From the NCBI GenBank assembly GCA_009778715.1, contig WRFR01000001.1, forward strand, positions 3,383-67,382: a stretch of 64,000 bases of DNA. The letters run 5' to 3'. The translations under genes and the position numbers were made by a program. This DNA is from Coriobacteriia bacterium (GTDB taxonomy: Bacteria; Actinomycetota; Coriobacteriia; WRKU01; WQUG01). The notes under the pieces are model-generated. The model was not told the origin of the DNA, made no database searches, and was given only the letters and a program-made list of their open reading frames with translations. This document shows positions 665 to 49,783 of the stretch, in pieces. Positions within the stretch are counted from its first letter, which is position 1. Each line of letters begins with the position of its first letter.

Positions 665-739
665 CTACGGCGCAGGGCGCTGAACCGTATCGTTGCATGC
701 TTGTTTGTAAAAACCATTACAATATGTTATTCTTTTTGT

Positions 740-1783
740 ATGAAAGAGATTGTTACAAATATTGATATGCTTCGTGAAATTGCATTGGATCAGTATGGTT
801 ATGTTACTTTTGCTCAAGCTAGGGATGCCGGTGTTACGCAACCAGCGGTCGCAATGTTAACGCGCCGAGACAGACTGGATAAAGTTGCTCATGGGGTGTA
901 CCGCGTGCCTCAAGTACCGCCCACTCAACATGATCGGTATATGTTGGCGGTGTTATGGACGGGCGCGCCAGAGGCCTGCCTGAGCCACGATACTGCTCTT
1001 GAGGTTTACGAGGTAAGTGATATCAATCCGGCGAATATTCATGTTGCTGTTGCAAAACGGCGTCGCATAAACCGTGCGGGTGGAGAGGGCTATACGCTGC
1101 ATCATGCGGATCTGGCTCCGGAGCAGGTTACTTGGTGGGAGGGCATTCCAACCGTTAGACTGCCACTTGCGATTGCACAATGTATCGATGATGGTGTGCC
1201 TGCGTACCTCATTCGCCAGGCTTTAGAAAGGGCGCCACAAAAAGGTTTATTACTACCCGAAGAACAGATCAGCCTGATCGCACAGTTGGAAGCACGCAGC
1301 GGTAAAGCGGTTGAGGCGAAAAGTGATGTCGGAGGTGGTTGGTATAATAAGAACATGTCTATGGAACTTCAACAGAGAGCCCTTTCCCGTCCAAAGGATT
1401 TTGCTGATGCAGTGCGTCAGCTTGAGGCGGGTATGCCTGACTATGTTGTGATGGGCAATTTTCTGGATGAATTCTATCGTTTGCCACAATCAAAAAAGCA
1501 AGCTTCTCTTGATAAAGAACCGCCGGCATCCTCTGCACTTGAAAAGATGATGGCAGTAAACTATGCGGCTACTGCCGAAAAACTCGCACATGATTTTAAG
1601 CTGCAAGTTCCTGTATGGGTTAATAAGCCACGGTACTTTCTTGCTGAGGGTGAAGCGATATATGGGTATCGCCCGTACAAAGAGACGCGGGCTGACCTCG
1701 CAGAGATCCTTAGAGAAGAAGCGCCCGTCGAGTTCGCCCGGCGTAATCTTTTCGTTTCGGCTAATGCGCTAACAAGGGTCTAA
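740..1783 (+). CDS. AbiEi-like (type IV TA / abortive-infection antitoxin family) protein with ~180-aa extra C-terminal region
   Basis: The N-terminus (…REIALDQYGYVTFAQARDAGVTQPAVAMLTRRDRLDKVAHGVYRV…) matches the AbiEi wHTH pattern. It is followed by an AbiEi C-domain-like stretch (CLSHDTALEVYEV…VAVAKRRR…GIPTVRLPLAIAQCID). The listed ORF starts at TTG 701, and ATG 740 is the more plausible start. The stop overlaps or abuts the next gene (TAAgATG). Confidence 0.6.
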   Translation: MKEIVTNIDMLREIALDQYGYVTFAQARDAGVTQPAVAMLTRRDRLDKVAHGVYRVPQVPPTQHDRYMLAVLWTGAPEACLSHDTALEVYEVSDINPANIHVAVAKRRRINRAGGEGYTLHHADLAPEQVTWWEGIPTVRLPLAIAQCIDDGVPAYLIRQALERAPQKGLLLPEEQISLIAQLEARSGKAVEAKSDVGGGWYNKNMSMELQQRALSRPKDFADAVRQLEAGMPDYVVMGNFLDEFYRLPQSKKQASLDKEPPASSALEKMMAVNYAATAEKLAHDFKLQVPVWVNKPRYFLAEGEAIYGYRPYKETRADLAEILREEAPVEFARRNLFVSANALTRV

Positions 1784-30236: not shown

Positions 30237-30553
30237 GACAGGCTAAACACTGCCTAGCATTGTTCCTGCGAGGCTCACGGGCGACAGCCCGCATCGCCTC
30301 ACAGCGCCTAGCCGGACAGCGTTTATTTCCCGCCTTTATGAAATACGGCAAGTTGACGCGCCCTGAGCTGCGGGTTACTATTGGAACGTAAGATTGTTCA
30401 CGGAGTAAAGCTTCCGTACTGATATATTTGGTTGTGTATACTACACCTGTAAACTGAAGTCTCTTCCTGGGACAGTCTTTGTGCTATGCGAAACCGCAGG
30501 GCTCCGTAAAGACTATTAACGTCGCTGAAGCGACACCCGGAAGGAGGGAAGCC

Positions 30554-32092
30554 ATGAGTACCCGCATCGCTCTTGAAGTGATCATCGCGGTCGTTATCGG
30601 GCTTGCCCTCGGCTTTATCATCGATCACTATCTGATCAGCGCAAAAGCGCGCAAGGCCGCAGAGGAAGCAGAGAAGCTTGTTTCCCGTGCGGAAAAGGAA
30701 GCCGAGAGCCTGAAAAAAGAAGCGCTTCTTGAAGCAAAAGATGAGATCTACAAGCAGAAGTCAGAGGCAGAGGCAGAAGAGAAGACTCGTCGCAAAGAGA
30801 TCACCGCTCTCGAGAACCGCCTCGTACAACGCGAGGAAACCATCGACCGCCGCATGGAAAGTGTCGACAAACGAGAGCACCAGCTCAGCTCCCAGGCCGG
30901 GCAACTGGAACATCGCGAAGAGGAGCTGAAAGCAGCTTTCGTCGAGGTGACCGCACGACTGGAAAGTGTTGCCTCAATGACTGCTGAAGAAGCCAAGGTC
31001 GAACTGCTGAGATCGCTCGAAGATGAGGTCCAACGCGAGTCTGTCGCTTTGATACGCGACACTGAGACCCAGGCGAAAGAGGAAGCGGACCGTCGGGCAA
31101 GACGTATCGTGGGCATCGCGATCCAACGGGTCGCCGCTGACCATACCGCCGAAGCCACCGTCAGCGTCGTCCATATTCCTACTGACGAGATGAAAGGCCG
31201 CCTGATCGGCCGCGAGGGTCGTAATATCCGCGCTTTCGAGCAGATCACTGGTATCAACCTGATCATCGATGACACTCCCGAGACCGTGGTACTTTCAAGC
31301 TTCGATCCCGTGCGTCGTGAGATCGGCCGTATTGCGCTTGAATCGCTTATCGCGGATGGCCGCATCCATCCGGCGCGTATCGAAGAAGTCTTTGGCAAGG
31401 CCGAGAAGCTCGTCAACGAGCAGATCCAGCGTGATGGCGAGCAGGCCACTTTTGATGCAGGTGTCAACAGCCTGCATCCCGAGCTGGTCAGGACGTTAGG
31501 CCGCCTGCGTTTCCGTACCAGCTACGGTCAAAACGTACTCAATCACTCGCTTGAGGTTAGCTGGCTCGCGGGCGTGATGGCCGAAGAATTAGGGGCGGAC
31601 GTCGAGTTGGCGAAACGTGCCGGCCTGCTTCACGATCTGGGCAAGGCTATCGATCATGAGGTCGAAGGCCCCCACGCGCTGATAGGCGCTGAGTTGGCCA
31701 AACGTATGGGTGAAAATCCCGAGGTCGTTCACATCATCGAAGCGCACCACAATGACGTCGAGCCCCAGACGGTTGAGGCTGTGTTGGTCCAAGCGGCTGA
31801 CGCGATCAGCGCGTCACGTCCGGGCGCGCGTCGCGAAACGCTTGAAAGCTACGTCAAGCGGCTGGAGAAGCTTGAGGCAGTTGCCAATGCCCATGGCGGC
31901 GTCGAGAAGACCTACGCCATGCAGGCAGGCCGTGAGATCCGTATCATGGTCCAGCCGGACGAGGTCAGTGACGGCGACGCCGTGATCCTGGCGCGCGACA
32001 TCGCGAAAGAGATCGAAGAGCAGCTGGAATATCCGGGCCAGATCAAGATTATGGTCGTGCGTGAAAGCCGTGCGGTCGACTACGCGAAATAG
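30554..32092 (+). CDS. rny: Ribonuclease Y
   Basis: N-terminal TM ([19 protein letters not shown]), coiled coil, KH ([15 protein letters not shown]), and HD domain (…LLHDLGKA…). Start at ATG 30554 (SD GGAAGGAGGGaagccATG). The listed ORF begins at 30479. Confidence 0.85.
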
Positions 32093-32117: not shown

Positions 32118-33197
32118 ATGACGGATCATCCCACAAAGCCCTTGCTGGACTTCGTTTCTTCAGTTTCAGGAGATACCTACCTGAAAGTTGAGGAGGATCT
32201 TGGCGAGGGCTTTGTTCGTTTGAATGTCAGCGAAGCCGAACGTCGTCAGGCTAAGCATGATATTCGTAGTACCGAAGATATACTGATCGAACTTTTGCGC
32301 AACGCCCGCGATGCGGGAGCTACGCACCTCTACGTAGCCAGTTCCCTGGAAGAGGGTTCTCGGCATCTGACTGTCATAGATGATGGGCAAGGAGTGCCCG
32401 CGACGTTGCAACAACAAATCTTTGAACCACGGGTGACAAGCAAGCTTGCGACGATGGTGGTCGACGACTGGGGTGTGCATGGCCGCGGCATGGCGCTCTA
32501 CTCCATCGCTCAGAATACTGAGACCTGCCGCATGATCGCAAGTGGCGTCGGCCAGGGCGCTGCGCTGGACATCAGTGCTGATACGCGTACGTTGCGTGAA
32601 CGTGCGGACCAGAGCACCTGGCCTCAGATCAAGGCAAGCGATAAGGGTTTTACCGTCGAGAGCGGACCGCGCAATCTGATCCGAACTACCCTGGAGTTCT
32701 GCTGCCAGCATCCCCAGATGGAAGTCAGTTTTGGATCCCCGTCAGAGATTACGGCCACGTTGCGCGCTGCTGGCCTCGCGTTGACACGCGGTCACCCGGC
32801 AAACGAGGCTGATGTGCGCCAGATGCCGGTCTGGCTCTGGCCAGCCCAGGCTACCGATGGCGCCGAACTGTTCGAAGCGGCCCAGGCATTAGGCCTGGCG
32901 CTTTCAGAACGTAATGCCTACCGGGTGCTGCGCGGCGAGGTCGCGCCGCTCAAGTCACTTACCGAGCAGATGTACCGCCGGACTCAGAAGAGTACCCAGG
33001 AGGCAGATGTTGACATCTATCGTGACGCGCGTGGGCTTAAGGTCGACCCTTCTGACTTGCGGGACTTTCAGAATCAGGTAGAGAAGGCCTTTGATGAACT
33101 GGCGAACAAATATTATCTGACGCTTTCTGATGACATGAAGGTGCAGGTAACGAAGCGGGCTATCTCGATCCGTCTTCCATTCATGAAAGAGGAATAA
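32118..33197 (+). CDS. Stand-alone GHKL ATPase resembling the MutL N-terminal domain (359 aa, no C-terminal dimerisation/endonuclease domain)
   Basis: ILIELLRNARDAGATHLYV…LTVIDDGQGVP…EPRVTSKL…GVHGRGMALYSIA…GFTVES aligns with MutL motifs I-IV (ELVENAIDA / DNGxGI / RHATSKI / GFRGEAL / GTxV). Confidence 0.55.
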   Translation: MTDHPTKPLLDFVSSVSGDTYLKVEEDLGEGFVRLNVSEAERRQAKHDIRSTEDILIELLRNARDAGATHLYVASSLEEGSRHLTVIDDGQGVPATLQQQIFEPRVTSKLATMVVDDWGVHGRGMALYSIAQNTETCRMIASGVGQGAALDISADTRTLRERADQSTWPQIKASDKGFTVESGPRNLIRTTLEFCCQHPQMEVSFGSPSEITATLRAAGLALTRGHPANEADVRQMPVWLWPAQATDGAELFEAAQALGLALSERNAYRVLRGEVAPLKSLTEQMYRRTQKSTQEADVDIYRDARGLKVDPSDLRDFQNQVEKAFDELANKYYLTLSDDMKVQVTKRAISIRLPFMKEE

Positions 33198-33200
33198 CAG

Positions 33201-34535
33201 ATGCTGGGCGAGACGTATTACGTCAAAACCTTTGGGTGCCAGATGAACAAGTATGACAGTGAGCGGGTAGCCGGGCTGCTTGAGAATGCCGGGTTGCAGG
33301 CAGTCGGGACGCCCGACGATGCAGATGTCATCGTATTTCTGACCTGCTGTGTGCGTGAGGGCGCCGACGAGCGCCTCTATGGGCAGGTCGCCAGCCTTAA
33401 GCGCCTGAAGACGGCTGGAAAAACACCCCTGATCGCGGTGGGCGGCTGCATCGGGCAGCGTGACGGAGAAGAGCTGCAGAAAAGGATCCCACATATCGAT
33501 GTAGTGTTTGGCACACACAATCTTAATGACCTGGTGCCGCTCCTGGATCAGGTTGCCGAGGATCGGACTCCCCAGGTAGCGCGCCTTCAGGACAGCTCCG
33601 AGGCTGACTTCAAGCGCCTGGTACCCGAGCAGCGTGAGCATCCCTTTCATGCCTGGCTGCCGATATCGGTGGGCTGCAACAATTTCTGCAGCTACTGCAT
33701 CGTGCCTTATGTACGCGGACGCGAGGTGAGCAGGCCATTTGACGAGATCGTCGAAACGGCCCGGGAGCTCAAAGCCGATGGCGTCCGTGAGATCACACTG
33801 TTGGGACAAAACGTCAACTCATATGGGCGTGACCTTTACGGAGAGCCGCGCTTTGCTCAGGTGCTGGAAGCAGTGGCGTCAACGGGTATAAGCCGTCTGG
33901 GCTTTGCCACGAGCCATCCCAAGGATCTCTCTGATGAGACGATCAATACGATGGCTTCAACGCCCGCGGTGCTCCGTTATCTCCACTTGCCGGTCCAACA
34001 TGGCAATAACGAGATCCTGCGTGCCATGCGACGAGTCTATACGCGCGAACAGTATCTGGAGCGGGTGGAGTCATTGCGGGCAGCCATTCCGGATATCACA
34101 CTTTCGACCGATATCATCGTCGGTTTCCCCGGAGAGACCGAGGAGCAGTTCGAGGATACGTTGAGCTTAGTCCGCCAGGTGGGCTTTGACCAGGCTTTTA
34201 CCTTCATCTATTCGCCACGTGAGGCGACCTTAGCTGCGGGGTTCCCAGACCAGATTCCTCATGAGGTGGCCTTAGAGCGTTTCGAGCGTTTGGCTGCCTT
34301 GGTGCAGGTGAGCGCTGAGGCGCGCAATGCTGCATTGCTCGATACGACGGCATGCGTACTGCTGGAAGGTCCCTCAAAGCGCAACCCTGCATTGATGACC
34401 GGTCGTACGCGGGGCTATAAGCTCGTTCACGTCCCGGCACCTGAAGGGACCGATGCTGCAAAGCTGGTCGGACAGGAACTGCCGGTGCGTATCACGGGAA
34501 CGCAGGCCTTTTACTTGCAAGGCGTACTGGAATAG
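33201..34535 (+). CDS. miaB: tRNA-2-methylthio-N6-dimethylallyladenosine synthase MiaB
   Basis: UPF0004 N-domain (FGCQMN), radical-SAM CNNFCSYC, and TRAM C-terminus. Confidence 0.9.
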   Translation: MLGETYYVKTFGCQMNKYDSERVAGLLENAGLQAVGTPDDADVIVFLTCCVREGADERLYGQVASLKRLKTAGKTPLIAVGGCIGQRDGEELQKRIPHIDVVFGTHNLNDLVPLLDQVAEDRTPQVARLQDSSEADFKRLVPEQREHPFHAWLPISVGCNNFCSYCIVPYVRGREVSRPFDEIVETARELKADGVREITLLGQNVNSYGRDLYGEPRFAQVLEAVASTGISRLGFATSHPKDLSDETINTMASTPAVLRYLHLPVQHGNNEILRAMRRVYTREQYLERVESLRAAIPDITLSTDIIVGFPGETEEQFEDTLSLVRQVGFDQAFTFIYSPREATLAAGFPDQIPHEVALERFERLAALVQVSAEARNAALLDTTACVLLEGPSKRNPALMTGRTRGYKLVHVPAPEGTDAAKLVGQELPVRITGTQAFYLQGVLE

Positions 34536-34537
34536 TC

Positions 34538-35476
34538 ATGGAACCAACGCCTCGCCTCTATGCGGTCGTTGGCCCGACGGGAACGGGCAAGAGCGAGTTT
34601 GCACAACAACTGGCAGAACGCTTTGATGGTGTGGTACTTTCCGCTGATGCCCTGCAGGTCTATCGAGAGCTCAACATCGGGACAGCGAAGCTGACAGAAG
34701 AGGAGCGTCGTGTCCCACACTTCGGCCTCGATCTGCTGAGTGTGTCGCAACCGTATTCAGCAGCACTTTACCAAGAGTATGCGCGTGGCGTCATCGATGA
34801 ACACCTTACGCAGGGGCAATCCGTGGTCGTCTGCGGCGGTACCGGCCTCTACGTGCGGGCAGCACTTGATAAATTCGACTTTTCGGCGGGTGAGCAGGAA
34901 GGTAATCAGTTACGCGCTCATTATGAGGCGCTGGCGGCCGAACAAGGTGATGATGCGTTGTATCGTTTACTGGAAGAGCGTGACCCTGTTTCTGCCGCCC
35001 TGATACATCCCCATAACGTACGACGCGTCATTCGCGCACTTGAACTTTGTGGGCAGGGAGAGTCTTACGCCGAAGGAACTGCGGGCTTTAAAAGCTTTCA
35101 GAGTTATTACCCGGTGGTTACCTGGTTGGGCTTGCGTAAAGAGCGCGAGGCGCTCTATCATGACCTTGAAGCAAGGGTTGATGCCATGCTGAAAGTTGGA
35201 TTGATCGATGAGGTTCGTATGTTGCGCGAAAAAGGTTTGGCTGAATCGCTGACCGCTCGCCAGGCGATCGGCTACAAGGAACTTATGTCCTGGCTGGATG
35301 ATGAGTGTTCTTATGAGGACGCGGTTGCTGCAATCAAACAGAACACCCGCCGTTATGCCAAGCGCCAAATGACCTTCTTTAATGCTGATCCGCGTATTCA
35401 GTGGAGAGATATTGAAGTAACAAGCAACCTCGAATCTGATGGCTCAGAAACGCCTGCGCGTATCGAAGCGGCATAA
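34538..35476 (+). CDS. miaA: tRNA dimethylallyltransferase MiaA
   Basis: …VGPTGTGKSEFA… P-loop plus the MiaA fold. Confidence 0.9.
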   Translation: MEPTPRLYAVVGPTGTGKSEFAQQLAERFDGVVLSADALQVYRELNIGTAKLTEEERRVPHFGLDLLSVSQPYSAALYQEYARGVIDEHLTQGQSVVVCGGTGLYVRAALDKFDFSAGEQEGNQLRAHYEALAAEQGDDALYRLLEERDPVSAALIHPHNVRRVIRALELCGQGESYAEGTAGFKSFQSYYPVVTWLGLRKEREALYHDLEARVDAMLKVGLIDEVRMLREKGLAESLTARQAIGYKELMSWLDDECSYEDAVAAIKQNTRRYAKRQMTFFNADPRIQWRDIEVTSNLESDGSETPARIEAA

Positions 35477-37539: not shown

Positions 37540-38673
37540 TTGCCAAAAGGGAGACCTACTCTGGGTAGTTATGAAGTAAAAAACGAGCGACTGCAAGCGT
37601 TGTTGATCGGTATTGATACGGGCGCGAAAAACCTGTGGTCAGCTGAGGATTCGCTCGATGAATTAGCGCGGCTGGCTGAGACTGCAGACCTTAAAGTGGT
37701 CGGCCGCCTCAGCCAGAAGCTCTCTGCCCCGCAAAACGTCACCTACCTGGGCAGCGGGAAACTCGAAGAATCAAAGCGTCTCAGCCAAGAGCTCGGCGCC
37801 GATGTGGTTTTATTCGACGATGAACTCAGTCCGCGCCAGGAATCGACCTTGGCTCGCGAGTTCGGAGATCGCCTTATGGTCGTTGATCGCACAGCTCTTA
37901 TTTTGAGCATTTTCGCTGATCATGCAACGTCACGTGAAGGTAAACTACAGGTAGAGCTTGCCCAGCTGGAGTACGAATTACCTCGTTTGCGCGGCAAGTG
38001 GTCACATCTGACAAAAGAAAAACTTGGGGGCGGAACTGGCGCGCGTTTTGGGTCGGGAGAATCGCAGCTGGAAAGCGACCGGAGAATGATCCGCAAGCGT
38101 ATTGCTATCCTGAAGAAGAAGATCGGGGCCGTTGAGCGCGAGCGCCTGACACAGCGAAGCAGAAGGCAAGCTTCGCGTATCTTTCGGATCGTGTTGGTCG
38201 GATATACTAATGCCGGGAAATCGACGCTTCTCAACCGTTTAAGCTCGGCAGAGGTGTTGGCCTATGACAAGCTGTTTGCCACGCTTGATGCAACGACACG
38301 CCGCATCGGTTTTGAAGGCGGGCGCCAGGCCACCTTGACCGACACGGTCGGATTTATCAACAAGCTTCCACATACCCTGGTTGCCTCGTTTAAGTCGACG
38401 CTTGATGAGGTTCGCGAGGCCGATCTTCTGCTCCATGTTGTCGATGCGGCCTCGCCGGTGTCGCGAGCGCAAATCGCCTCAGTGCAGGAAGTGCTTCTTG
38501 AGCTCGGTGCAGAAAAGAAACCTCAGTTGCTGGTGTTTAATAAGAGCGATGAGCTTGACCGGGATGGGCGCACGGCCCTGCTGTCACGCTGGCAGGGGAG
38601 CGTGGCAGTTTCTGCGTTGACAGGCGGTGGCATCAATGAGCTACGCCGCCGCTTGGAAGTATTAAGCTCTTAG
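37540..38673 (+). CDS. hflX: GTPase HflX
   Basis: …VGYTNAGKSTLLN…DTVGFI…NKSD… The N-domain aligns with E. coli HflX. The start codon is uncertain: the listed start 37540 is TTG, with no in-frame ATG nearby. Confidence 0.8.
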   Translation: MPKGRPTLGSYEVKNERLQALLIGIDTGAKNLWSAEDSLDELARLAETADLKVVGRLSQKLSAPQNVTYLGSGKLEESKRLSQELGADVVLFDDELSPRQESTLAREFGDRLMVVDRTALILSIFADHATSREGKLQVELAQLEYELPRLRGKWSHLTKEKLGGGTGARFGSGESQLESDRRMIRKRIAILKKKIGAVERERLTQRSRRQASRIFRIVLVGYTNAGKSTLLNRLSSAEVLAYDKLFATLDATTRRIGFEGGRQATLTDTVGFINKLPHTLVASFKSTLDEVREADLLLHVVDAASPVSRAQIASVQEVLLELGAEKKPQLLVFNKSDELDRDGRTALLSRWQGSVAVSALTGGGINELRRRLEVLSS

Positions 38674-39314
38674 CGGAATATCCGCAGAACGCCAATGACC
38701 TCGCCGGCAAGTTCGACAGCGCGCGAGTAGATGGGCTCATATCCCTCGTTTGCTGGTTGCAGGCGGATACGGTCCTGTTCCAGATAATAATATTTCACGG
38801 TAGCTTCATCATCGATGATTGCAACGACCATGTCTCCTGGTTGGGCGGTTTTCTGCGCGCGCACGATCACCAGATCCCCATCAAGAACACCGGCATCGAT
38901 CATCGAATCTCCATGAACACGCAACAGGAAACTCCCGTCAGCTCCTCCTTTGATCAGAGAAGCAGGGAGGGGGAGCGTCTCTTCGCGGTTTTCTTCGGCC
39001 AGGATAGGCGTGCCAGCAGCCACGCGCCCGATCAGGGGCAGATCAATGATCTCACCACGATCGTAAGACGTATCCGAAGGTGACGCTTCCTCACGCAGGA
39101 GAGAGAAGACCCGTGACTTGCCGTTGTCGCGTTGAAGGAAGCCCTTCTCGATCAGTTTGTTGATGTGGGTCTGGATCGTACCGGTCGAGCTGAGGCCAAC
39201 GCCCTTGCCAATCTCGCGCACGCTGGGGAATATGCCCTCTTTTTGGTAATAGCTCACGATGAAATCATAGATCATCTTTTGTTTGGGAGTGAGGTCAGTA
39301 TAGTCAACTGTCAT
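38670..39314 (-). CDS. lexA: SOS repressor LexA
   Basis: MTVDYTDLTPKQKMIYDFI…SVREIGKGVGLSSTGTIQTHINKLIEKGFLQRD plus the S24 peptidase domain (…AAGTPILAEEN…VHGDSMIDAG…). SD AAGGAG 7 nt upstream. Its stop overlaps the hflX stop tail-to-tail. Confidence 0.9.
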   Translation of the reverse strand: MTVDYTDLTPKQKMIYDFIVSYYQKEGIFPSVREIGKGVGLSSTGTIQTHINKLIEKGFLQRDNGKSRVFSLLREEASPSDTSYDRGEIIDLPLIGRVAAGTPILAEENREETLPLPASLIKGGADGSFLLRVHGDSMIDAGVLDGDLVIVRAQKTAQPGDMVVAIIDDEATVKYYYLEQDRIRLQPANEGYEPIYSRAVELAGEVIGVLRIFR

Positions 39315-39397
39315 GATAGAACTCCTTAGGATTCGGGTTGCTGATACCAGTATAAAACATCTGTCCGAAAAAAACAAACAAATGTACGAAATAACAC

Positions 39398-39747: not shown

Positions 39748-40191
39748 ATGAATTGTCCAGCCTGTGGATTCGCTGAGAGCAAAGTTATCGATTCGCGAAC
39801 CTCGGATTCTCAAGATGCTATCAGAAGGCGGCGTGAATGCCTTGAATGCGGCACACGATTCACTACCTACGAACGAATAGAAGAGCGCCCTCTTTTAGTA
39901 GTAAAACGCGACGGCTCTTCTGAGGCATTCGACTACAATAAACTGCGTCGCGGCATCATGACTGCCGTGGTCAAACGCCCGATCGGCGCTGACGCAATCG
40001 ACGCGCTCATCAATGACATTGTTACCAATCTTCAAAACTCCATGAAGTATGAGGTGAGCTCGAATGTGCTGGGTGACATGGTGCTCAGACGCCTGAAAGA
40101 ACTTGACGGGGTTGCCTATATCCGTTTCGCCTCAGTCTATAAGGATTTTCAGAACCTTGATGAGTTTACGCGCGAACTGGGGGAACTCTAA
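39748..40191 (+). CDS. nrdR: Transcriptional repressor NrdR
   Basis: MNCPACGFAESKVIDSRTSDSQDAIRRRRECLECGTRFTTYERIEE (zinc ribbon) plus an ATP-cone. Promoter TTGACT-17-TATAGT upstream. Confidence 0.9.
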   Translation: MNCPACGFAESKVIDSRTSDSQDAIRRRRECLECGTRFTTYERIEERPLLVVKRDGSSEAFDYNKLRRGIMTAVVKRPIGADAIDALINDIVTNLQNSMKYEVSSNVLGDMVLRRLKELDGVAYIRFASVYKDFQNLDEFTRELGEL

Positions 40192-45892: not shown

Positions 45893-45969
<77 letters not shown>

Positions 45970-46058
45970 TTTTGGCGGCACTGAGCCGCCGTGACGAAAC
46001 CCTCAAGTAGGCAACTACGAATCGGCTTTCGTCACGACGCCTCAGCACTCGCCAAAAC
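45970..46058. repeat. Structured tRNA-adjacent element E1 with terminal inverted repeats TTTTGGCGG…CACTCGCCAAAAC
   Basis: ttttggcggcactgagccgcc-gtgacgaaa…tttcgtcac-…cactcgccaaaac has nested hairpins. It shares its ends with E2 at 49540-49645. Confidence 0.45.
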
Positions 46059-46107
46059 CAAGTTGATAGTCTTGGCATAATTTATCGGTGGGAGACGAGG
46101 AGCTATC

Positions 46108-46824
46108 ATGTCAACAAAAAATCCTGATTACACGTTGTATTACTGGCCGGTCCCGTTTCGAGGGCAGTTTTTGCGCGCCCTGCTCAGCTTTGCGGGCGCA
46201 AACTGGGAAGAAGGCGATCCTGGCCAGGGGGCGCAGATGATGAACGCTGCTCCGGATGAGCAACCGGTTCCTTTTATGGGCTTACCTTTGCTGATTGATC
46301 ACAAGAACGACTTCGCGCTCTCGCAGATGCCGGCGATTGCTTACTATCTGGGTGAGGAGTTTGGCCTTCTGCCTGACACCTCAGAAGGGCGTGCCCTGTG
46401 CCTGAAAGTCGCCAATGACGCCAATGATGTCATCGATGAGATCACGCTTCAGGGTGGCATGCTGATGTGGACCGATGAAAGCTGGCAGGCGTGGCTCCCA
46501 AATCTCTGTCGCTGGATGGACATGTGGGAGACCCTGGGCAAGCGCCATGGCCTGACAGAAGAGAGCGGCTACCTGCTTGGTACGCCCGGGCCGACCATCG
46601 CCGATATTGTTACGGCGACCTTGTGGGTGACAATGTGCGAGCGATTCCCGAAGATCGGTAAGATGCTGAAGGAGAATGCGCCTTGCACGACAGCGCTTGC
46701 GCACCGGATGTGGGCGATGCCTGCTCTGGCGAAGTTTGCTCAGGATGCAGACGAGCGCTACGGCGAATCCTATTGTGGCGGCCAGATCGAAGCATCACTG
46801 CGTGAGGTGGTCGGCGGCGAGTAA
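46108..46824 (+). CDS. Glutathione S-transferase-like protein
   Basis: 238 aa. The N-terminus YTLYYWPVPFRGQFLRALLSFAG is thioredoxin-like and GST-like, with a helical C-domain. Confidence 0.5.
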   Translation: MSTKNPDYTLYYWPVPFRGQFLRALLSFAGANWEEGDPGQGAQMMNAAPDEQPVPFMGLPLLIDHKNDFALSQMPAIAYYLGEEFGLLPDTSEGRALCLKVANDANDVIDEITLQGGMLMWTDESWQAWLPNLCRWMDMWETLGKRHGLTEESGYLLGTPGPTIADIVTATLWVTMCERFPKIGKMLKENAPCTTALAHRMWAMPALAKFAQDADERYGESYCGGQIEASLREVVGGE

Positions 46825-46932
46825 GCGCTGGGCGCGTTGTGTAACACGGCAGGTCGCATACTACCTTGTTTCGCTTCTTATTGCTTGCTATTATGGATGA
46901 ACGCGCATGCGTCCTCGGAACGCGTGCGAGAT

Positions 46933-47008
<76 letters not shown>

Positions 47009-47016
47009 TTTTGGCT

Positions 47017-47093
47017 GCGCCCATAGCTCAGCAGGATAGAGCGCGAGACTTCTAATCTTGAGGCCGGGGGTTCGACTCCCTCTGGGCGCACCA
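47017..47093 (+). tRNA. tRNA-Arg (anticodon TCT)
   Basis: gcgcccatagctcagcaggatagagcgcgagacTTCTAatcttgaggccgggggttcgactccctctgggcgcacca. CCA is encoded. Confidence 0.85.
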
Positions 47094-47122
47094 GCCTCAT
47101 ATAAAATTGTACGGAGTCGAAC

Positions 47123-47893
47123 CTACTCTCCATGCTCCCAGCGGTCTAGCCACCAACGCACTGAACGCTCCAGTTCTTTTACGAAATCTACAGCGTACTT
47201 CTGAAGGTATTCGTTTTGTGGATAATCGGCGATTTCAGGCTTAAAACCATGGGGAGCAAAGGTCGCTCCAAGAAGGCTGGCCTTACGTGCCAGCTCTTCA
47301 TCGGTAAGTCGATGATAACGATTCTTCTGCAACACATACGTGGTCTCGCGTGGGCGAGGGGAGACTTCGACCTTTGGGCGACCAAAAATCACGAGCGCAG
47401 CAGGCATCGCATAGCGAGGTAAGTTGAACAGGCGCGCATGTTCTTCGCCCTTTTCCAGAACATCTCCAACATAACAGCTTCCGATTCCCATTGACTCAGC
47501 AGCGATAACGGCGTTCTGCGCCGCAATGAATGCATCAGCAAAACAGAAAAGAAGGTTTCCTATACCAGGGTCATGCCAGTCGGCGTCCAGATCCTCAACA
47601 TGACTGTGATGATACAGGTCGACCCACTTCTGGTAGTCGGCGACAAAGAGCAGAACATAGGGAGCTTTTGCGATCATCGGCTGATTGTCACAGGTATGGG
47701 CCAAGCGGTCCTTGATCGCCTGATCATCGATCTCGATTAGTGAATACGCCATGAGGTTACAGGCGGTCGGCGCACGAAACGCTGCGTTTACTATAGTGTC
47801 CTTTTCCGCCTGGGTAAGTGGTTCCTGAAGGAAACTGCGCGTCGAAGCGCGCTGGTTTATGACCTCCAGGGTTGGATTGTTGATCTCACTCAT
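47123..47893 (-). CDS. Nitroreductase-family protein
   Basis: 256 aa. …RASTRSFLQEPLTQAEKDTIVNAAFRAPTACNLMAYSLIEI… is the nitroreductase fold. Confidence 0.8.
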   Translation of the reverse strand: MSEINNPTLEVINQRASTRSFLQEPLTQAEKDTIVNAAFRAPTACNLMAYSLIEIDDQAIKDRLAHTCDNQPMIAKAPYVLLFVADYQKWVDLYHHSHVEDLDADWHDPGIGNLLFCFADAFIAAQNAVIAAESMGIGSCYVGDVLEKGEEHARLFNLPRYAMPAALVIFGRPKVEVSPRPRETTYVLQKNRYHRLTDEELARKASLLGATFAPHGFKPEIADYPQNEYLQKYAVDFVKELERSVRWWLDRWEHGE

Positions 47894-47902
47894 AGTAATC
47901 AG

Positions 47903-48532
47903 CTAGTTATTGGTCGGGATATTACCGAACAGTGGCTGGAGGAGCGTGTCATTGTTGATCTTCCATATCGACGCCCCGTTATGGTCCTTGGCGATAACAA
48001 GGTTGACCGTGACCGTTGAGATCGTTTTGTTCGCGGTATTGCGAAAGGTCTTGATCATGAGGTTGATTGTCGCATCTGCACGTTCATCCGCTGTCATGTT
48101 CTTGAAGTTAGGGTCAGCCGCGAGCTGTTGTGAAAGTTCGTTCTGAAACGCCGTGTCGGCTGACATCTTCTCCATGTCAACACCTAAGAACTGCACTTCG
48201 ACCGTTGCGTTTTTTGCCGAAACGTCTTCTGAATCCGAGGTGATTTTATAGCTGCCAGCAGCCCCAAGTGCTTTGAGGAATGCTGTGGCGGTATCTTCGC
48301 TGATGCCCGTATTACCGAGGAGTTTTTTGGGGTCTTTTGCCCCTGTCAGCTTGGTTTGATTGGCATCTGTCCAATAGGACGCAAACTTGGTGAAATCGCC
48401 CGCCTGATACGCTCCCATCGCTGCAGATACCGTGTCTTTTGCACTTGTCATCGGCGCTTTTGTTCCACATCCGGCCATGAGGATAGTAGTAAGAATCAGG
48501 CAGATGGTCAATATAACAGCATGTTTTTTCAT
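47903..48532 (-). CDS. Lipoprotein (hypothetical)
   Basis: MKKHAVILTICLILTTILMAGCG (signal peptide plus lipobox LMAGC). SD AAGGAGGAG. Lies 10 nt upstream of the nitroreductase gene on the same strand. Confidence 0.6.
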   Translation of the reverse strand: MKKHAVILTICLILTTILMAGCGTKAPMTSAKDTVSAAMGAYQAGDFTKFASYWTDANQTKLTGAKDPKKLLGNTGISEDTATAFLKALGAAGSYKITSDSEDVSAKNATVEVQFLGVDMEKMSADTAFQNELSQQLAADPNFKNMTADERADATINLMIKTFRNTANKTISTVTVNLVIAKDHNGASIWKINNDTLLQPLFGNIPTNN

Positions 48533-48772
48533 AAGCTCCTCCTTATGTTGTAACAAACATTGCAAACAGCTTCACTATACCTGAATCGGAAGTGAGAGTA
48601 AAAGCCTCCTCTCCAGCTCCACAAGTCGAAAGCAGACTCTTGTAATCGACTAGTTTTGATCTTAATGAAGACCGCTCGCCCTATTGCTACTGGTTTACCC
48701 GCCGCGCTGTAGTAAACTCGCAACGGCGGCTTGTGTAAGACGCACAGACAAGTAGATACCGGAGGTTTGGCA

Positions 48773-49351
48773 GTGAAGGTCTATATCGTTTTTTCGCATC
48801 CGAATCATAATGGAATGGGTTATGCAGCCCTTCAATCAGCAAAAAAGGGTTTTGAGGATGCGGGGCACGAGGTTCGGGTCACTGACCTTTATCAGGAGAA
48901 AAACTTCAATCCAATTCTGTGCTATGACGACCCCTGTACGCTCTGTGAGATGCAAAATGACCTGATGACAAAGCCGTATCGAGACAATATCACCTGGGCC
49001 GATAAACTTGTCTTCATCTATCCGATCTGGTGGGGGAGCGGTCCCGCGATTTTTAAGGGCTTCATCGATGTGGTTTTTGCCTCCGGCTTTGCCTATAACT
49101 TCAAAGGCATCTGGCCTCACGGGCACCTGGGAGAGAAGACCGCCTGGGTCATCGTCACCCATGACACACCGTGGATCGTCGCGCGCTTTGTTCAGCGCGA
49201 TTACGGACGCATCATGCGGGGCCAAATACTGAGAACGATGTTCGGCATCAAAGGCGCCAAGCTCACGACGTTGCCGTTCCTGAAGCGCAGTACGCTGGAA
49301 CAGCGTAAGAAGATGCTTGCGAAAGTATATCGCATCGCACATAAAGCCTAG
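48773..49351 (+). CDS. Flavodoxin-like fold NAD(P)H-dependent oxidoreductase
   Basis: VKVYIVFSHPNHNGMGYAALQSAKKGFEDAGHEVRVTDLY… (Flavodoxin_2/NQO-like). GTG start 7 nt after GGAGG. The listed ORF starts at 48731. Confidence 0.65.
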   Translation: MKVYIVFSHPNHNGMGYAALQSAKKGFEDAGHEVRVTDLYQEKNFNPILCYDDPCTLCEMQNDLMTKPYRDNITWADKLVFIYPIWWGSGPAIFKGFIDVVFASGFAYNFKGIWPHGHLGEKTAWVIVTHDTPWIVARFVQRDYGRIMRGQILRTMFGIKGAKLTTLPFLKRSTLEQRKKMLAKVYRIAHKA

Positions 49352-49461
49352 CTGAAAATTTCTGGATTGCCGTGCTCGGCCTCTGGTCTCTCTCGCAATG
49401 ACAAGGGGCATTTTATCTCGCGGACTTCTGTGATATGATTGATAGCCGCTTGACTGGACAT

Positions 49462-49539
49462 GGTGGGTGTAGCTCAGCTGGTTAGAGTGCCTGACTGTGG
49501 CTCAGGAGGTCGAGGGTTCGAATCCCTTTACCCACCCCA
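49462..49539 (+). tRNA. tRNA-His (anticodon GTG) with extra 5' G-1
   Basis: g-gtgggtgtagctcagctggttagagtgcctgactGTGGCtcaggaggtcgagggttcgaatccctttacccacc-cca. G-1 pairs with C73. The listed ORF 49460-49681 is spurious. Confidence 0.85.
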
Positions 49540-49645: not shown

Positions 49646-49783
49646 AAACCTGGCAAGCGACCAATGCGGCGGAAGCCGTAAATACACATGTGGACTGATC
49701 GACGTTCTCAGGTGCCCTTAAAGGGGAGAAATGTTGGGAAGACGTTCGCAGAGGAGACAACCGAAAGGAAGGTGGCCAGTCGT

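What the first reader, a model, noticed from the sequence alone, without database searches (positions are those of the whole stretch)
32118..33197. Orphan MutL-N-terminal-domain-like GHKL ATPase between rny and miaB-miaA
Seen: the 359-aa protein has the Bergerat ATP-binding motifs in MutL-specific form (E-LLRN-A-DAGA; IDDGQGV; E-P-RVTSKL cf. MutL RHATSKI; GVHGRGMAL cf. GFRGEAL). It lacks the about 200-aa C-terminal dimerisation/endonuclease domain, and no mutS lies nearby. Established: in many Gram-positives mutS-mutL lie next to miaA. Inference: it may be a domesticated or truncated MutL ATPase module, a possible regulator or partner of another nuclease, or a remnant of a lost MutSL system.
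Basis: partly seen in the sequence, partly recalled or inferred. Interest (0 to 1): 0.6.

Follow-up and report, generated by a model that had tools for sequence, protein, structure and literature searches.

The report
RNase Y-linked MutL-like ATPase family
The gene encodes an intact, strongly conserved ATP-binding protein whose ATP pocket resembles that of the DNA-repair protein MutL; it is not a broken MutL but an uncharacterised family that, in Coriobacteriia and related deep-branching actinobacteria, always sits directly behind the gene for the RNA-cutting enzyme RNase Y.

Summary

It is not a remnant. It belongs to a sharply delimited family (more than 3,400 90%-clusters; at least 595 species genomes) in Coriobacteriia and related deep-branching Actinomycetota, with every catalytic residue invariant.

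The main new fact is synteny. In 83 of 83 loci with upstream DNA the gene directly follows rny (median gap 18 nt). In about 70 loci it is followed by spoVS, then miaB and miaA. It therefore occupies the slot that ymdB holds next to rny in Bacillus.

My best reading is an ATP-driven switch or partner of RNase Y, possibly also SpoVS. This rests on gene order only. A repair role is unlikely but not excluded, because the literature reports that Coriobacteriia lack both MutS-MutL and NucS.

The parts
30479..32092 (+). rny (RNase Y: N-terminal membrane/coiled-coil region, KH and HD domains). It is the invariable upstream neighbour of the GHKL gene.
   Evidence: ORF. Homologous neighbours carry Pfam RNase_Y_N/KH/HD. 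rny lies directly upstream in 83/83 loci, median gap 18 nt.
32118..33197 (+). The GHKL ATPase gene (359 aa, pI 5.3, 39.9 kDa), identical to NCBI MCL2881307.1 'ATP-binding protein [Coriobacteriia bacterium]'.
32118..32183 (+). N-terminal arm (aa 1-22). It has low model confidence and is a candidate dimerisation strap like those of GHL ATPases (inference).
   Evidence: pLDDT below 50 for aa 1-7 and 9-22. F12 is nearly invariant.
32184..32588 (+). Bergerat-fold (GHKL) ATP-binding domain, aa 23-157. It includes a highly conserved beta-hairpin and helix (aa 24-49) before the N-box helix.
32277..32315 (+). Motif I / N-box, D-I-L-I-E58-L-L-R-N62-A-R-D65-A. E58 is the presumed general base and N62 the Mg2+ ligand. 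The form E-L-x-x-N-x-x-D-A is that of MutL, Hsp90, MORC and TopoVI-B.
   Evidence: E58, R61, N62 and D65 are invariant in A3. Aligned to MutL K-E-L-V-E-N-S-L-D-A.
32379..32399 (+). Motif II / G1 box, D88-D-G90-Q-G92-V-P94 (adenine contact).
   Evidence: D88, G90, G92 and P94 are invariant.
32421..32447 (+). ATP-lid segment F102-E-P-R105-V-T-S-K109-L. 'IFEP' resembles the histidine-kinase F-box; 'RVTSKL' resembles MutL 'RHATSKI'.
   Evidence: F102 and R105-K109 are invariant. Alignments.
32472..32504 (+). Motif III / G2 box, G119-V-H-G-R-G-M-A-L-Y-S129 (phosphate-binding glycine loop). Compare MutL G-F-R-G-E-A-L-A-S and GyrB G-L-H-G-V-G.
   Evidence: G119, H121-L127 and S129 are invariant. Alignments.
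32589..32795 (+). Middle alpha/beta domain (aa 158-226). It carries the invariant loop E161-[R/K]162-x-D164-Q165-S and invariant G183, N186, F194 and G206. The topology beta-beta-alpha-beta-alpha may be a minimal transducer-like element (unproven).
32853..32933 (+). Helix-turn-helix-like element (aa 246-272, A-E-L-F-E-A-A-Q-A-L-G-L-A-L-S263-E-R265-N-A-Y-R269-V-L).
   Evidence: S263, R265 and R269 are invariant across the family. Helices 248-257 and 264-271. A sub-threshold Pfam PF24410 (wHTH-HSP90_Na-assoc) hit falls on the same region of homologue P0021, 20.6 bits against a 23-bit cut-off. The region is acidic, so DNA binding is doubtful.
33012..33194 (+). C-terminal alpha/beta domain (aa 299-359): a long helix plus a four-stranded sheet, tethered by a linker of variable length.
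33201..34535 (+). miaB (tRNA methylthiotransferase), a downstream operon partner.
   Evidence: Pfam UPF0004/Radical_SAM/TRAM on homologous neighbours. No terminator-like site between rny, the GHKL gene and miaB.
34538..35476 (+). miaA (tRNA dimethylallyltransferase).
   Evidence: Pfam IPPT on homologous neighbours.

Best explanation
The gene encodes a functional member of an uncharacterised GHKL ATPase family. The family is confined to Coriobacteriia and neighbouring deep-branching Actinomycetota such as 'Ca. Humimicrobiaceae'.

Domain layout, from the N terminus:
- a flexible arm;
- a Bergerat-fold ATP-binding domain whose four motifs have the MutL/GHL form, with a glutamate general base four residues before the Mg-binding asparagine, N-x-x-D-A, a T-S-K lid and G-x-x-G-x-G;
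- a small alpha/beta domain with an invariant E-[R/K]-x-D-Q-S loop;
- a helical helix-turn-helix-like module;
- a variable linker;

Shown: the fold, the intact ATP site, family-wide constraint, and obligate co-location (very probably co-transcription) with rny, usually also spoVS, miaB and miaA.

Inferred: like other GHL-type ATPases it binds and hydrolyses ATP, probably with nucleotide-dependent dimerisation through the N-terminal arm. It uses that cycle to control or assist RNase Y, possibly together with the Alba-like protein SpoVS, in RNA processing or decay. It fills the genomic slot that the phosphoesterase YmdB fills next to rny in Firmicutes. The logic would parallel MutL-type ATPases that license a separate endonuclease, but acting on RNA.
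For: - Constraint: more than 3,412 90%-clusters, 224 50%-clusters at E<=1e-30 and at least 595 species genomes. All ATP-site residues are invariant at ~30% overall identity.
- Linkage: rny is directly upstream in 83/83 loci, median gap 18 nt and often 1 nt. This also holds in the most divergent AT-rich branch. spoVS is directly downstream in about 70 loci.
- Operon: no terminator-like site between rny, the GHKL gene and miaB in the window, with gaps of 25 and 3 nt.
- Precedents: GHKL-S5 ATPases recurrently partner with endonucleases (PMC2292703). B. subtilis rny is co-transcribed with the adjacent ymdB (PMC3542257).
Against: - The functional link to RNase Y rests on gene order alone. No fusion, interaction or expression data were found.
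- The surrounding region is a long housekeeping superoperon (ffh-rpsP-rimM-trmD-lepB-rny-...-miaB-miaA-hflX), so conserved order could partly reflect operon inertia.
- The protein is acidic (pI 5.3) and has no basic domain, so direct RNA binding is not indicated.
- The window's own clade lacks spoVS at this position, so SpoVS cannot be an obligatory cis-encoded partner.
- No transducer-type lysine could be identified, so ATP hydrolysis, as opposed to binding or phosphotransfer, is unproven.
Confidence: 0.42

Rival explanations
1. It is a protein kinase or partner-switching type GHKL, like SpoIIAB/RsbW or a histidine-kinase catalytic domain. It would phosphorylate a partner such as SpoVS, RNase Y or another protein, rather than act as a hydrolytic clamp.
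For: - Histidine-kinase models score almost as well as MutL: RstB 30.2 bits against MutL 33, and 31/31 family members hit both. hhalign against EnvZ gives 80%.
- The 'IFEP' segment resembles the kinase F-box.
- NCBI names some members 'sensor histidine kinase'.
Against: - No DHp/HisKA domain or membrane sensor is present.
- The only nearby conserved histidine, H47, is glutamine in most divergent members.
- The N-box has the GHL form E-L-x-x-N-x-x-D-A, not the kinase N-L-x-x-N-A-x-K.
- The lid carries MutL-like T-S-K.
- No STAS or receiver-domain gene is a conserved neighbour.
Confidence: 0.2
2. It is a housekeeping GHKL ATPase, for example a chaperone-like or assembly factor, whose position after rny is operon history without a mechanistic link to RNase Y.
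For: - The region is a long, conserved translation/RNA superoperon.
- Other genes (GNAT, phosphoglucomutase, PHP, AMMECR1/Memo-like) are inserted in the cluster in some lineages, so the cluster tolerates unrelated passengers.
- The protein is acidic, which suits a protein-binding role.
Against: - The rny-GHKL adjacency is kept in 83/83 loci, while the downstream order varies (spoVS lost, miaB moved upstream in L032/L046/L048).
- One- to ten-nucleotide gaps suggest translational coupling specifically with rny.
Confidence: 0.22
3. It is a highly diverged MutL N-terminal-domain derivative that still works on DNA. It could, for example, be part of an unknown mismatch- or damage-repair route in lineages that have neither MutS-MutL nor NucS.
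For: - MutL is the nearest known family by every method.
- All analysed Coriobacteriia lack MutS-MutL and NucS (PMC5290159).
- mutL lies next to miaA-hfq-hflX in E. coli, and this gene lies near miaB-miaA-hflX.
- An HTH-like element has invariant S/R/R residues.
- One submitter annotated a homologue as 'DNA mismatch repair protein'.
Against: - Homology is limited to about 80-100 residues of the ATP pocket, at 33 bits against a 180-bit cut-off.
- No transducer, no C-terminal domain and no endonuclease motif were found.
- No MutS-like or nuclease-for-DNA partner is in the conserved neighbourhood. The constant neighbours are RNA enzymes.
- The HTH-like region is acidic.
Confidence: 0.07
4. It is a decaying paralogue or pseudogene remnant of mutL.
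For: None beyond the short length relative to full-length MutL.
Against: - The reading frame is intact, and full-length orthologues occur in at least 595 species.
- There are 47 invariant columns at ~30% identity, including every ATP-site residue.
- The family is sharply delimited.
Confidence: 0.01

Closest known systems
MutL / MLH / PMS N-terminal ATPase domain (TIGR00585; PDB 1b63, 5x9y, 9n2k, 4p7a)
   Same: Both have a Bergerat fold. The four ATP-binding motifs are in nearly the same form: ELLRNARDAGAT against ELVENSLDAGAT, DDGQG against DNGCG, RVTSKL against RHATSKI, and HGRGMALYSI against GFRGEALASI. Both have a helix-loop-N-box arrangement before motif I. MutL is the best hit by sequence profile and by fold. 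The overall size is similar to the 40-kDa MutL N-terminal fragment.
   Different: Homology is detectable only for about 80-100 residues, and scores are far below family cut-offs (33 against 180 bits). The second half is not recognisably the S5-fold transducer, and no counterpart of Lys307 was found. There is no C-terminal dimerisation/endonuclease domain and no MutS partner. The constant neighbours are RNase Y and SpoVS, not repair genes.
Histidine-kinase catalytic (CA) domains and SpoIIAB/RsbW anti-sigma Ser kinases
   Same: They share the same fold, with comparable profile scores and close local superposition (SpoIIAB rmsd 1.8 A). The lid contains an 'IFEP' F-box-like segment.
   Different: There is no DHp/HisKA domain, no conserved phospho-acceptor histidine and no sensor or transmembrane region. 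No response regulator or STAS partner lies nearby. The N-box and lid carry GHL/MutL signatures, and there is an extra 200-residue C-terminal region.
YmdB (metallophosphoesterase encoded directly downstream of rny in Bacillus and other Firmicutes)
   Same: It occupies the same genomic position: directly after rny, co-transcribed, and followed by spoVS (the Bacillus order rny-ymdB-spoVS ... miaB(ymcB)-ymcA is from my own knowledge; rny-ymdB adjacency and polarity are in PMC3542257). This suggests an analogous accessory role to RNase Y.
   Different: The fold and chemistry are unrelated: a calcineurin-like phosphodiesterase against a GHKL ATPase. Whether Coriobacteriia lack ymdB was not tested.
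MORC / paraMORC GHKL-S5 ATPases of restriction-modification and defence systems (Iyer, Abhiman & Aravind 2008, PMC2292703)
   Same: These are stand-alone prokaryotic GHKL ATPases with MutL-like motifs and family-specific C-terminal extensions, genomically coupled to an endonuclease. The wHTH-with-Hsp90-like-ATPase theme gives a sub-threshold PF24410 hit.
   Different: Here the neighbourhood is housekeeping and vertically inherited, not sporadic or mobile. There were no PADLOC hits, no recognisable S5 domain and no MORC GhXhhpXXRhl motif. The linked nuclease is an endoribonuclease.

Membership tests
GHKL (Bergerat-fold) ATPase superfamily | Bergerat fold with motifs I-IV (N-box E/N, DxGxG, GxxGxG, G-T/S) | tested here: met
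MutL / MLH / PMS | ATP-binding motifs in MutL-specific form | tested here: met
MutL / MLH / PMS | Whole-protein score above the curated family cut-off (TIGR00585, 180 bits) | tested here: not met
   33 bits for the window protein. The best E-value among 31 family members is 1.4e-12, with the match confined to profile positions 23-104 of 555.
MutL / MLH / PMS | Second (transducer, ribosomal-S5-domain-2-like) domain supplying a conserved lysine (E. coli K307) to the gamma-phosphate | tested here: inconclusive
MutL / MLH / PMS | C-terminal dimerisation domain (MutL_C), with the DQHA(X)2E(X)4E endonuclease motif in most bacteria | tested here: not met
   No Pfam hit on aa 160-359. No PDB sequence hit and no structural hit. 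The motif is absent from the sequence.
MutL / MLH / PMS | Works with MutS (co-occurrence in the genome) | not testable with these tools
   No mutS lies in the 64-kb window or in any of 84 related loci. The literature states that all analysed Coriobacteriia lack MutS-MutL and NucS (PMC5290159). The rest of this genome could not be searched.
Two-component sensor histidine kinase (the name given by some NCBI records) | DHp/HisKA dimerisation domain with a conserved phospho-acceptor histidine upstream of the CA domain | tested here: not met
   No HisKA or HisKA_3 hit at E<=10. H47, the only conserved histidine near the N terminus, is glutamine in divergent members.
SpoIIAB/RsbW-type anti-sigma Ser kinases | A ~145-aa single-domain GHKL encoded beside a STAS-domain antagonist and a sigma factor | tested here: not met
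   The protein has 200 extra residues. No STAS or sigma gene is among the conserved neighbours. Kinase activity itself is not testable here.
MORC / paraMORC GHKL-S5 ATPases | GHKL plus S5 domain, sporadic distribution, neighbourhood of restriction/defence genes | tested here: not met
   No PADLOC match. The neighbourhood is housekeeping and vertically conserved. No S5-fold hit.

The most novel reading that the evidence does not exclude
This would be the ATPase subunit of a previously unrecognised RNase Y machine in Coriobacteriia and related deep-branching Actinomycetota. A MutL-like, ATP-gated dimeric clamp would license or target a separate endonuclease, as MutL does for MutH or for its own C-terminal nuclease, but here the nuclease is the mRNA-decay endoribonuclease RNase Y, with Alba-like SpoVS as a possible third component. 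A still more radical version, which I rate at about 5%, is that it contributes to replication fidelity in a class that lacks both MutS-MutL and NucS.
Probability: 0.2. Interest if true: 0.8.

Novelty: new variant of a known kind. Interest (0 to 1): 0.5.

Why it matters
- RNase Y is the central mRNA-decay endonuclease of Gram-positive bacteria, and its regulation is only partly understood (the Y-complex, YmdB). An obligately linked ATPase in a whole class, which includes common human gut genera (Collinsella, Eggerthella, Atopobium), would be a new type of RNase Y accessory factor. It would also be the first GHKL ATPase tied to RNA decay.
- The family is a clean test case for how the MutL-type ATP switch has been re-used outside DNA repair.
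- Coriobacteriia are reported to have no known mismatch-repair system, so a MutL-like ATPase conserved throughout the class deserves a direct mutation-rate test, even though the context argues against a repair role.
- Current database names for the family conflict ('sensor histidine kinase', 'DNA mismatch repair protein', 'ATP-binding protein') and should be replaced by a family-specific model.

Tried and rejected
- Truncated or decaying MutL: rejected because of full-length conservation, invariant catalytic residues and sub-threshold MutL scores.
- Histidine kinase with H47 as phospho-acceptor: rejected because H47 is Q in divergent members and no DHp domain exists.
- Defence-system GHKL (MORC-like): no PADLOC hit, and the context is housekeeping.
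- Gene fusions with RNase Y or SpoVS as Rosetta-stone evidence: none found. The long homologues (430-465 aa) only have an expanded low-complexity linker or inserts. P0229 and P0020 look like frameshift or assembly artefacts.
- DNA/RNA-binding signature: per-domain pI values are neutral to acidic, so there is no support.
- spoVS elsewhere in the window: none.
- Rfam scan of the window: only four tRNAs far from the gene.
- Literature searches for RNase Y with GHKL or with Coriobacteriia returned nothing.
- The afdb50 fold library was unavailable.

Full report
OBSERVATION. The ORF at 32118..33197 on the + strand (ATG start, 359 aa) is present exactly as described. It starts 25 nt after the stop of rny (30479..32092) and ends 3 nt before miaB (33201..34535), which is followed by miaA (34538..35476), dapF, an aminotransferase and hflX. 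Upstream lie ftsY, ffh, rpsP, a KH protein, rimM, trmD and lepB. No promoter- or terminator-like signal above background separates rny, the ORF and miaB. A terminator-like hairpin appears only after dapF.

IS IT A GHKL PROTEIN, AND IS IT MutL-LIKE? Pfam HATPase_c (30.6 bits, aa 50-129) and HATPase_c_3 (26.4 bits) both pass their gathering cut-offs. In NCBIfam the best hit is MutL TIGR00585 (33 bits, E 3e-8), but the curated cut-off is 180 bits, and the RstB histidine-kinase model follows at 30.2 bits. All 31 aligned family members hit both MutL and RstB models, with MutL slightly ahead (best 1.4e-12 against 1.6e-10).

Against PDB sequences, the single protein and the family profile both put MutL N-terminal domains first: Aquifex MutL at 1.1e-7 and MLH1 at 5e-4, with the first kinase at 1.5e-3. 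Only residues 49-154 align. hhalign of a 25-sequence profile spanning the whole family gives the following:
- E. coli MutL: 95.4% probability, E 1.7e-8, 30% identity over aa 54-132 against MutL 25-104.
- EnvZ: 80.1%.
- GyrB: 20.7%.

The protein belongs to a large, sharply bounded family. More than 3,412 90%-identity clusters match at E<=1e-3, nearly all 345-390 aa. There are 224 50%-identity clusters at E<=1e-30, and at least 595 species-representative genomes encode it. Named members are Coriobacteriia (Collinsella, Atopobium, Eggerthellales, Anaerosomatales and many MAGs). A divergent AT-rich branch comes from 'Actinobacteria bacterium' MAGs, including Ca. Humimicrobiaceae.

Across both branches (~30% identity), 47 columns are invariant:
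- E58, R61, N62, D65 (motif I).
- D88, G90, G92, P94 (motif II).
- F102, R105-K109 (lid).
- G119, H121-L127, S129 (motif III).
- G147 (motif IV).
- An N-terminal hairpin-helix element (G29, G31, L35, E39, R43-A45, D48, I49, E53).
- A post-GHKL loop: E161-[R/K]-x-D164-Q165.
- G183, N186, F194, G206.
- S263, R265, R269, in a helix-turn-helix-like element.

H47 is glutamine in divergent members, and no HisKA domain exists, so the NCBI label 'sensor histidine kinase' is not supported.

THE CONTEXT IS THE KEY FINDING. In 80 genome loci and several metagenome contigs the gene always follows rny: 83 of 83 loci with upstream DNA, median gap 18 nt, and often 1 nt in Collinsella. In about 70 loci the next gene is spoVS (Pfam PF04232), followed by miaB and miaA. 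The most divergent AT-rich members have the same rny-GHKL-spoVS-miaB-miaA order. Lineage-specific passengers occur:
- a GNAT gene between rny and the GHKL gene;
- a phosphoglucomutase before spoVS;
- a PHP-domain gene before miaB;
- an AMMECR1/Memo-like gene between miaB and miaA.

The rny-GHKL pair itself is never broken. The window's own clade lacks spoVS here; it includes several MAGs whose isolate or sample labels look like termite-gut sources, which is my reading of the labels and was not checked. The arrangement mirrors the Firmicute cluster rny-ymdB-spoVS ... miaB(ymcB)-ymcA (Bacillus order from my own knowledge; rny-ymdB adjacency and polarity are in PMC3542257). The GHKL gene sits in the ymdB slot.

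MECHANISM (INFERENCE). Every residue needed for ATP binding is invariant, as is the glutamate that acts as general base in GHL ATPases, so the protein is most likely an active ATPase. GHL ATPases (MutL, GyrB, Hsp90, MORC) act as nucleotide-gated dimeric clamps in which an N-terminal arm and a second domain close over the ATP lid. Here the disordered but conserved N-terminal arm, the highly conserved hairpin-helix before motif I, and the invariant E-[R/K]-x-D-Q-S loop just after the GHKL domain are candidates for these roles.

The C-terminal part is made of a helical HTH-like module, a linker that varies from about 20 to about 100 residues, and a small alpha/beta domain. It would then be the partner-binding end. 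The protein is acidic and has no basic domain, which favours protein-protein contacts over direct nucleic-acid binding. Prokaryotic GHKL-S5 ATPases repeatedly work with endonucleases (PMC2292703), and here the invariant neighbour is an endoribonuclease. I therefore propose an ATP-driven regulator or partner of RNase Y, possibly with SpoVS. Confidence is about 0.4, because only gene order supports the functional link.

RIVALS.
- Kinase or partner-switch GHKL (0.2). Supported by near-equal kinase scores and the SpoIIAB superposition. Weakened by GHL-type motifs and by the absence of DHp, STAS or receiver partners.
- Housekeeping ATPase unrelated to RNase Y (0.22). The superoperon tolerates passengers, but the specific rny adjacency is uniquely stable.
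- DNA-repair role (0.07). Castaneda-Garcia et al. report that all analysed Coriobacteriia lack MutS-MutL and NucS (PMC5290159). E. coli has amiB-mutL-miaA-hfq-hflX, which echoes GHKL-miaB-miaA...hflX here. Against this, no repair partner is linked and the MutL-specific domains are missing.
- Pseudogene or remnant (0.01): refuted.

NOVELTY AND SCORE. No family-specific Pfam or NCBIfam model exists, database names conflict, and full-text searches found no paper linking RNase Y with a GHKL protein or with Coriobacteriia. I classify the gene as a new variant of a known kind: a new GHKL family with its own architecture and an unprecedented, class-wide coupling to RNase Y. Interest is 0.5. The family and its synteny are solid and testable in cultivable gut Coriobacteriia, but the function is inferred only from context.

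LIMITS.
- Only 64 kb of this genome could be inspected, and nucS and ymdB were not searched for.
- Multimer prediction and the AFDB fold library were unavailable.

Noticed in passing
window 33197-33201; compare L033 7056-7457, L053 7068-7460, L084 2576-2839: Most relatives carry a spoVS gene (Alba-like, PF04232) directly after the GHKL gene. The window and its closest clade (L082, L001, L009, L073) go straight from the GHKL gene to miaB, and no spoVS exists anywhere in the 64-kb window.
   Followed up: yes
L033 7471-8316 and 9667-11052: In many environmental Coriobacteriia the cluster also holds a PHP-domain phosphoesterase between spoVS and miaB, and a fused Memo/AMMECR1-like gene between miaB and miaA. 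Both are absent from the window.
   Followed up: partly
L007 5436-5927; L030 3477-5192: There are lineage-specific insertions in the cluster: a 163-aa GNAT acetyltransferase-like ORF between rny and the GHKL gene (also the ~600-nt gaps in L002, L006, L015, L023, L024 and L031), and a phosphoglucomutase-like gene between the GHKL gene and spoVS (L030, L063, L066).
   Followed up: partly
L032, L046, L048, L058, L064, L072, L076: In these loci the miaB-like hit lies about 4-5 kb upstream of rny instead of downstream. It could be a rearranged cluster or a second radical-SAM paralogue; I did not resolve which.
   Followed up: no
window 30479-30553: The longest rny ORF starts at a TTG and adds about 25 residues ([25 protein letters not shown]) before '[14 protein letters not shown]', where the membrane helix begins. 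The true start is probably the internal ATG.
   Followed up: no
database records P0004, P0011, P0351 ('sensor histidine kinase'); P0319 ('DNA mismatch repair protein'); P0001 ('ATP-binding protein'): Public annotations of the same family conflict. None reflects a family-specific model.
   Followed up: yes
P0020 (509 aa), P0229 (517 aa): These two homologues look like assembly or frameshift artefacts (internal segment duplications; an RNase Y C-terminus run into the GHKL ORF through garbled sequence). They are not real fusions.
   Followed up: partly
window 701-1783: This ORF has an AbiEi antitoxin-type N-terminal domain (PF13338) in a lower-GC stretch (0.49 against about 0.57) at the window's start. 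It is possibly a mobile or toxin-antitoxin element.
   Followed up: no
window 45893-49536: There are four tRNA genes (Rfam RF00005), and rpsB follows at 49688. No other Rfam family occurs in the window.
   Followed up: no
window 38670-39377 (-) and 39748-40191 (+): lexA and nrdR lie just downstream of hflX, so an SOS regulator is present in this lineage even though MutSL and NucS are reported absent from the class.
   Followed up: no
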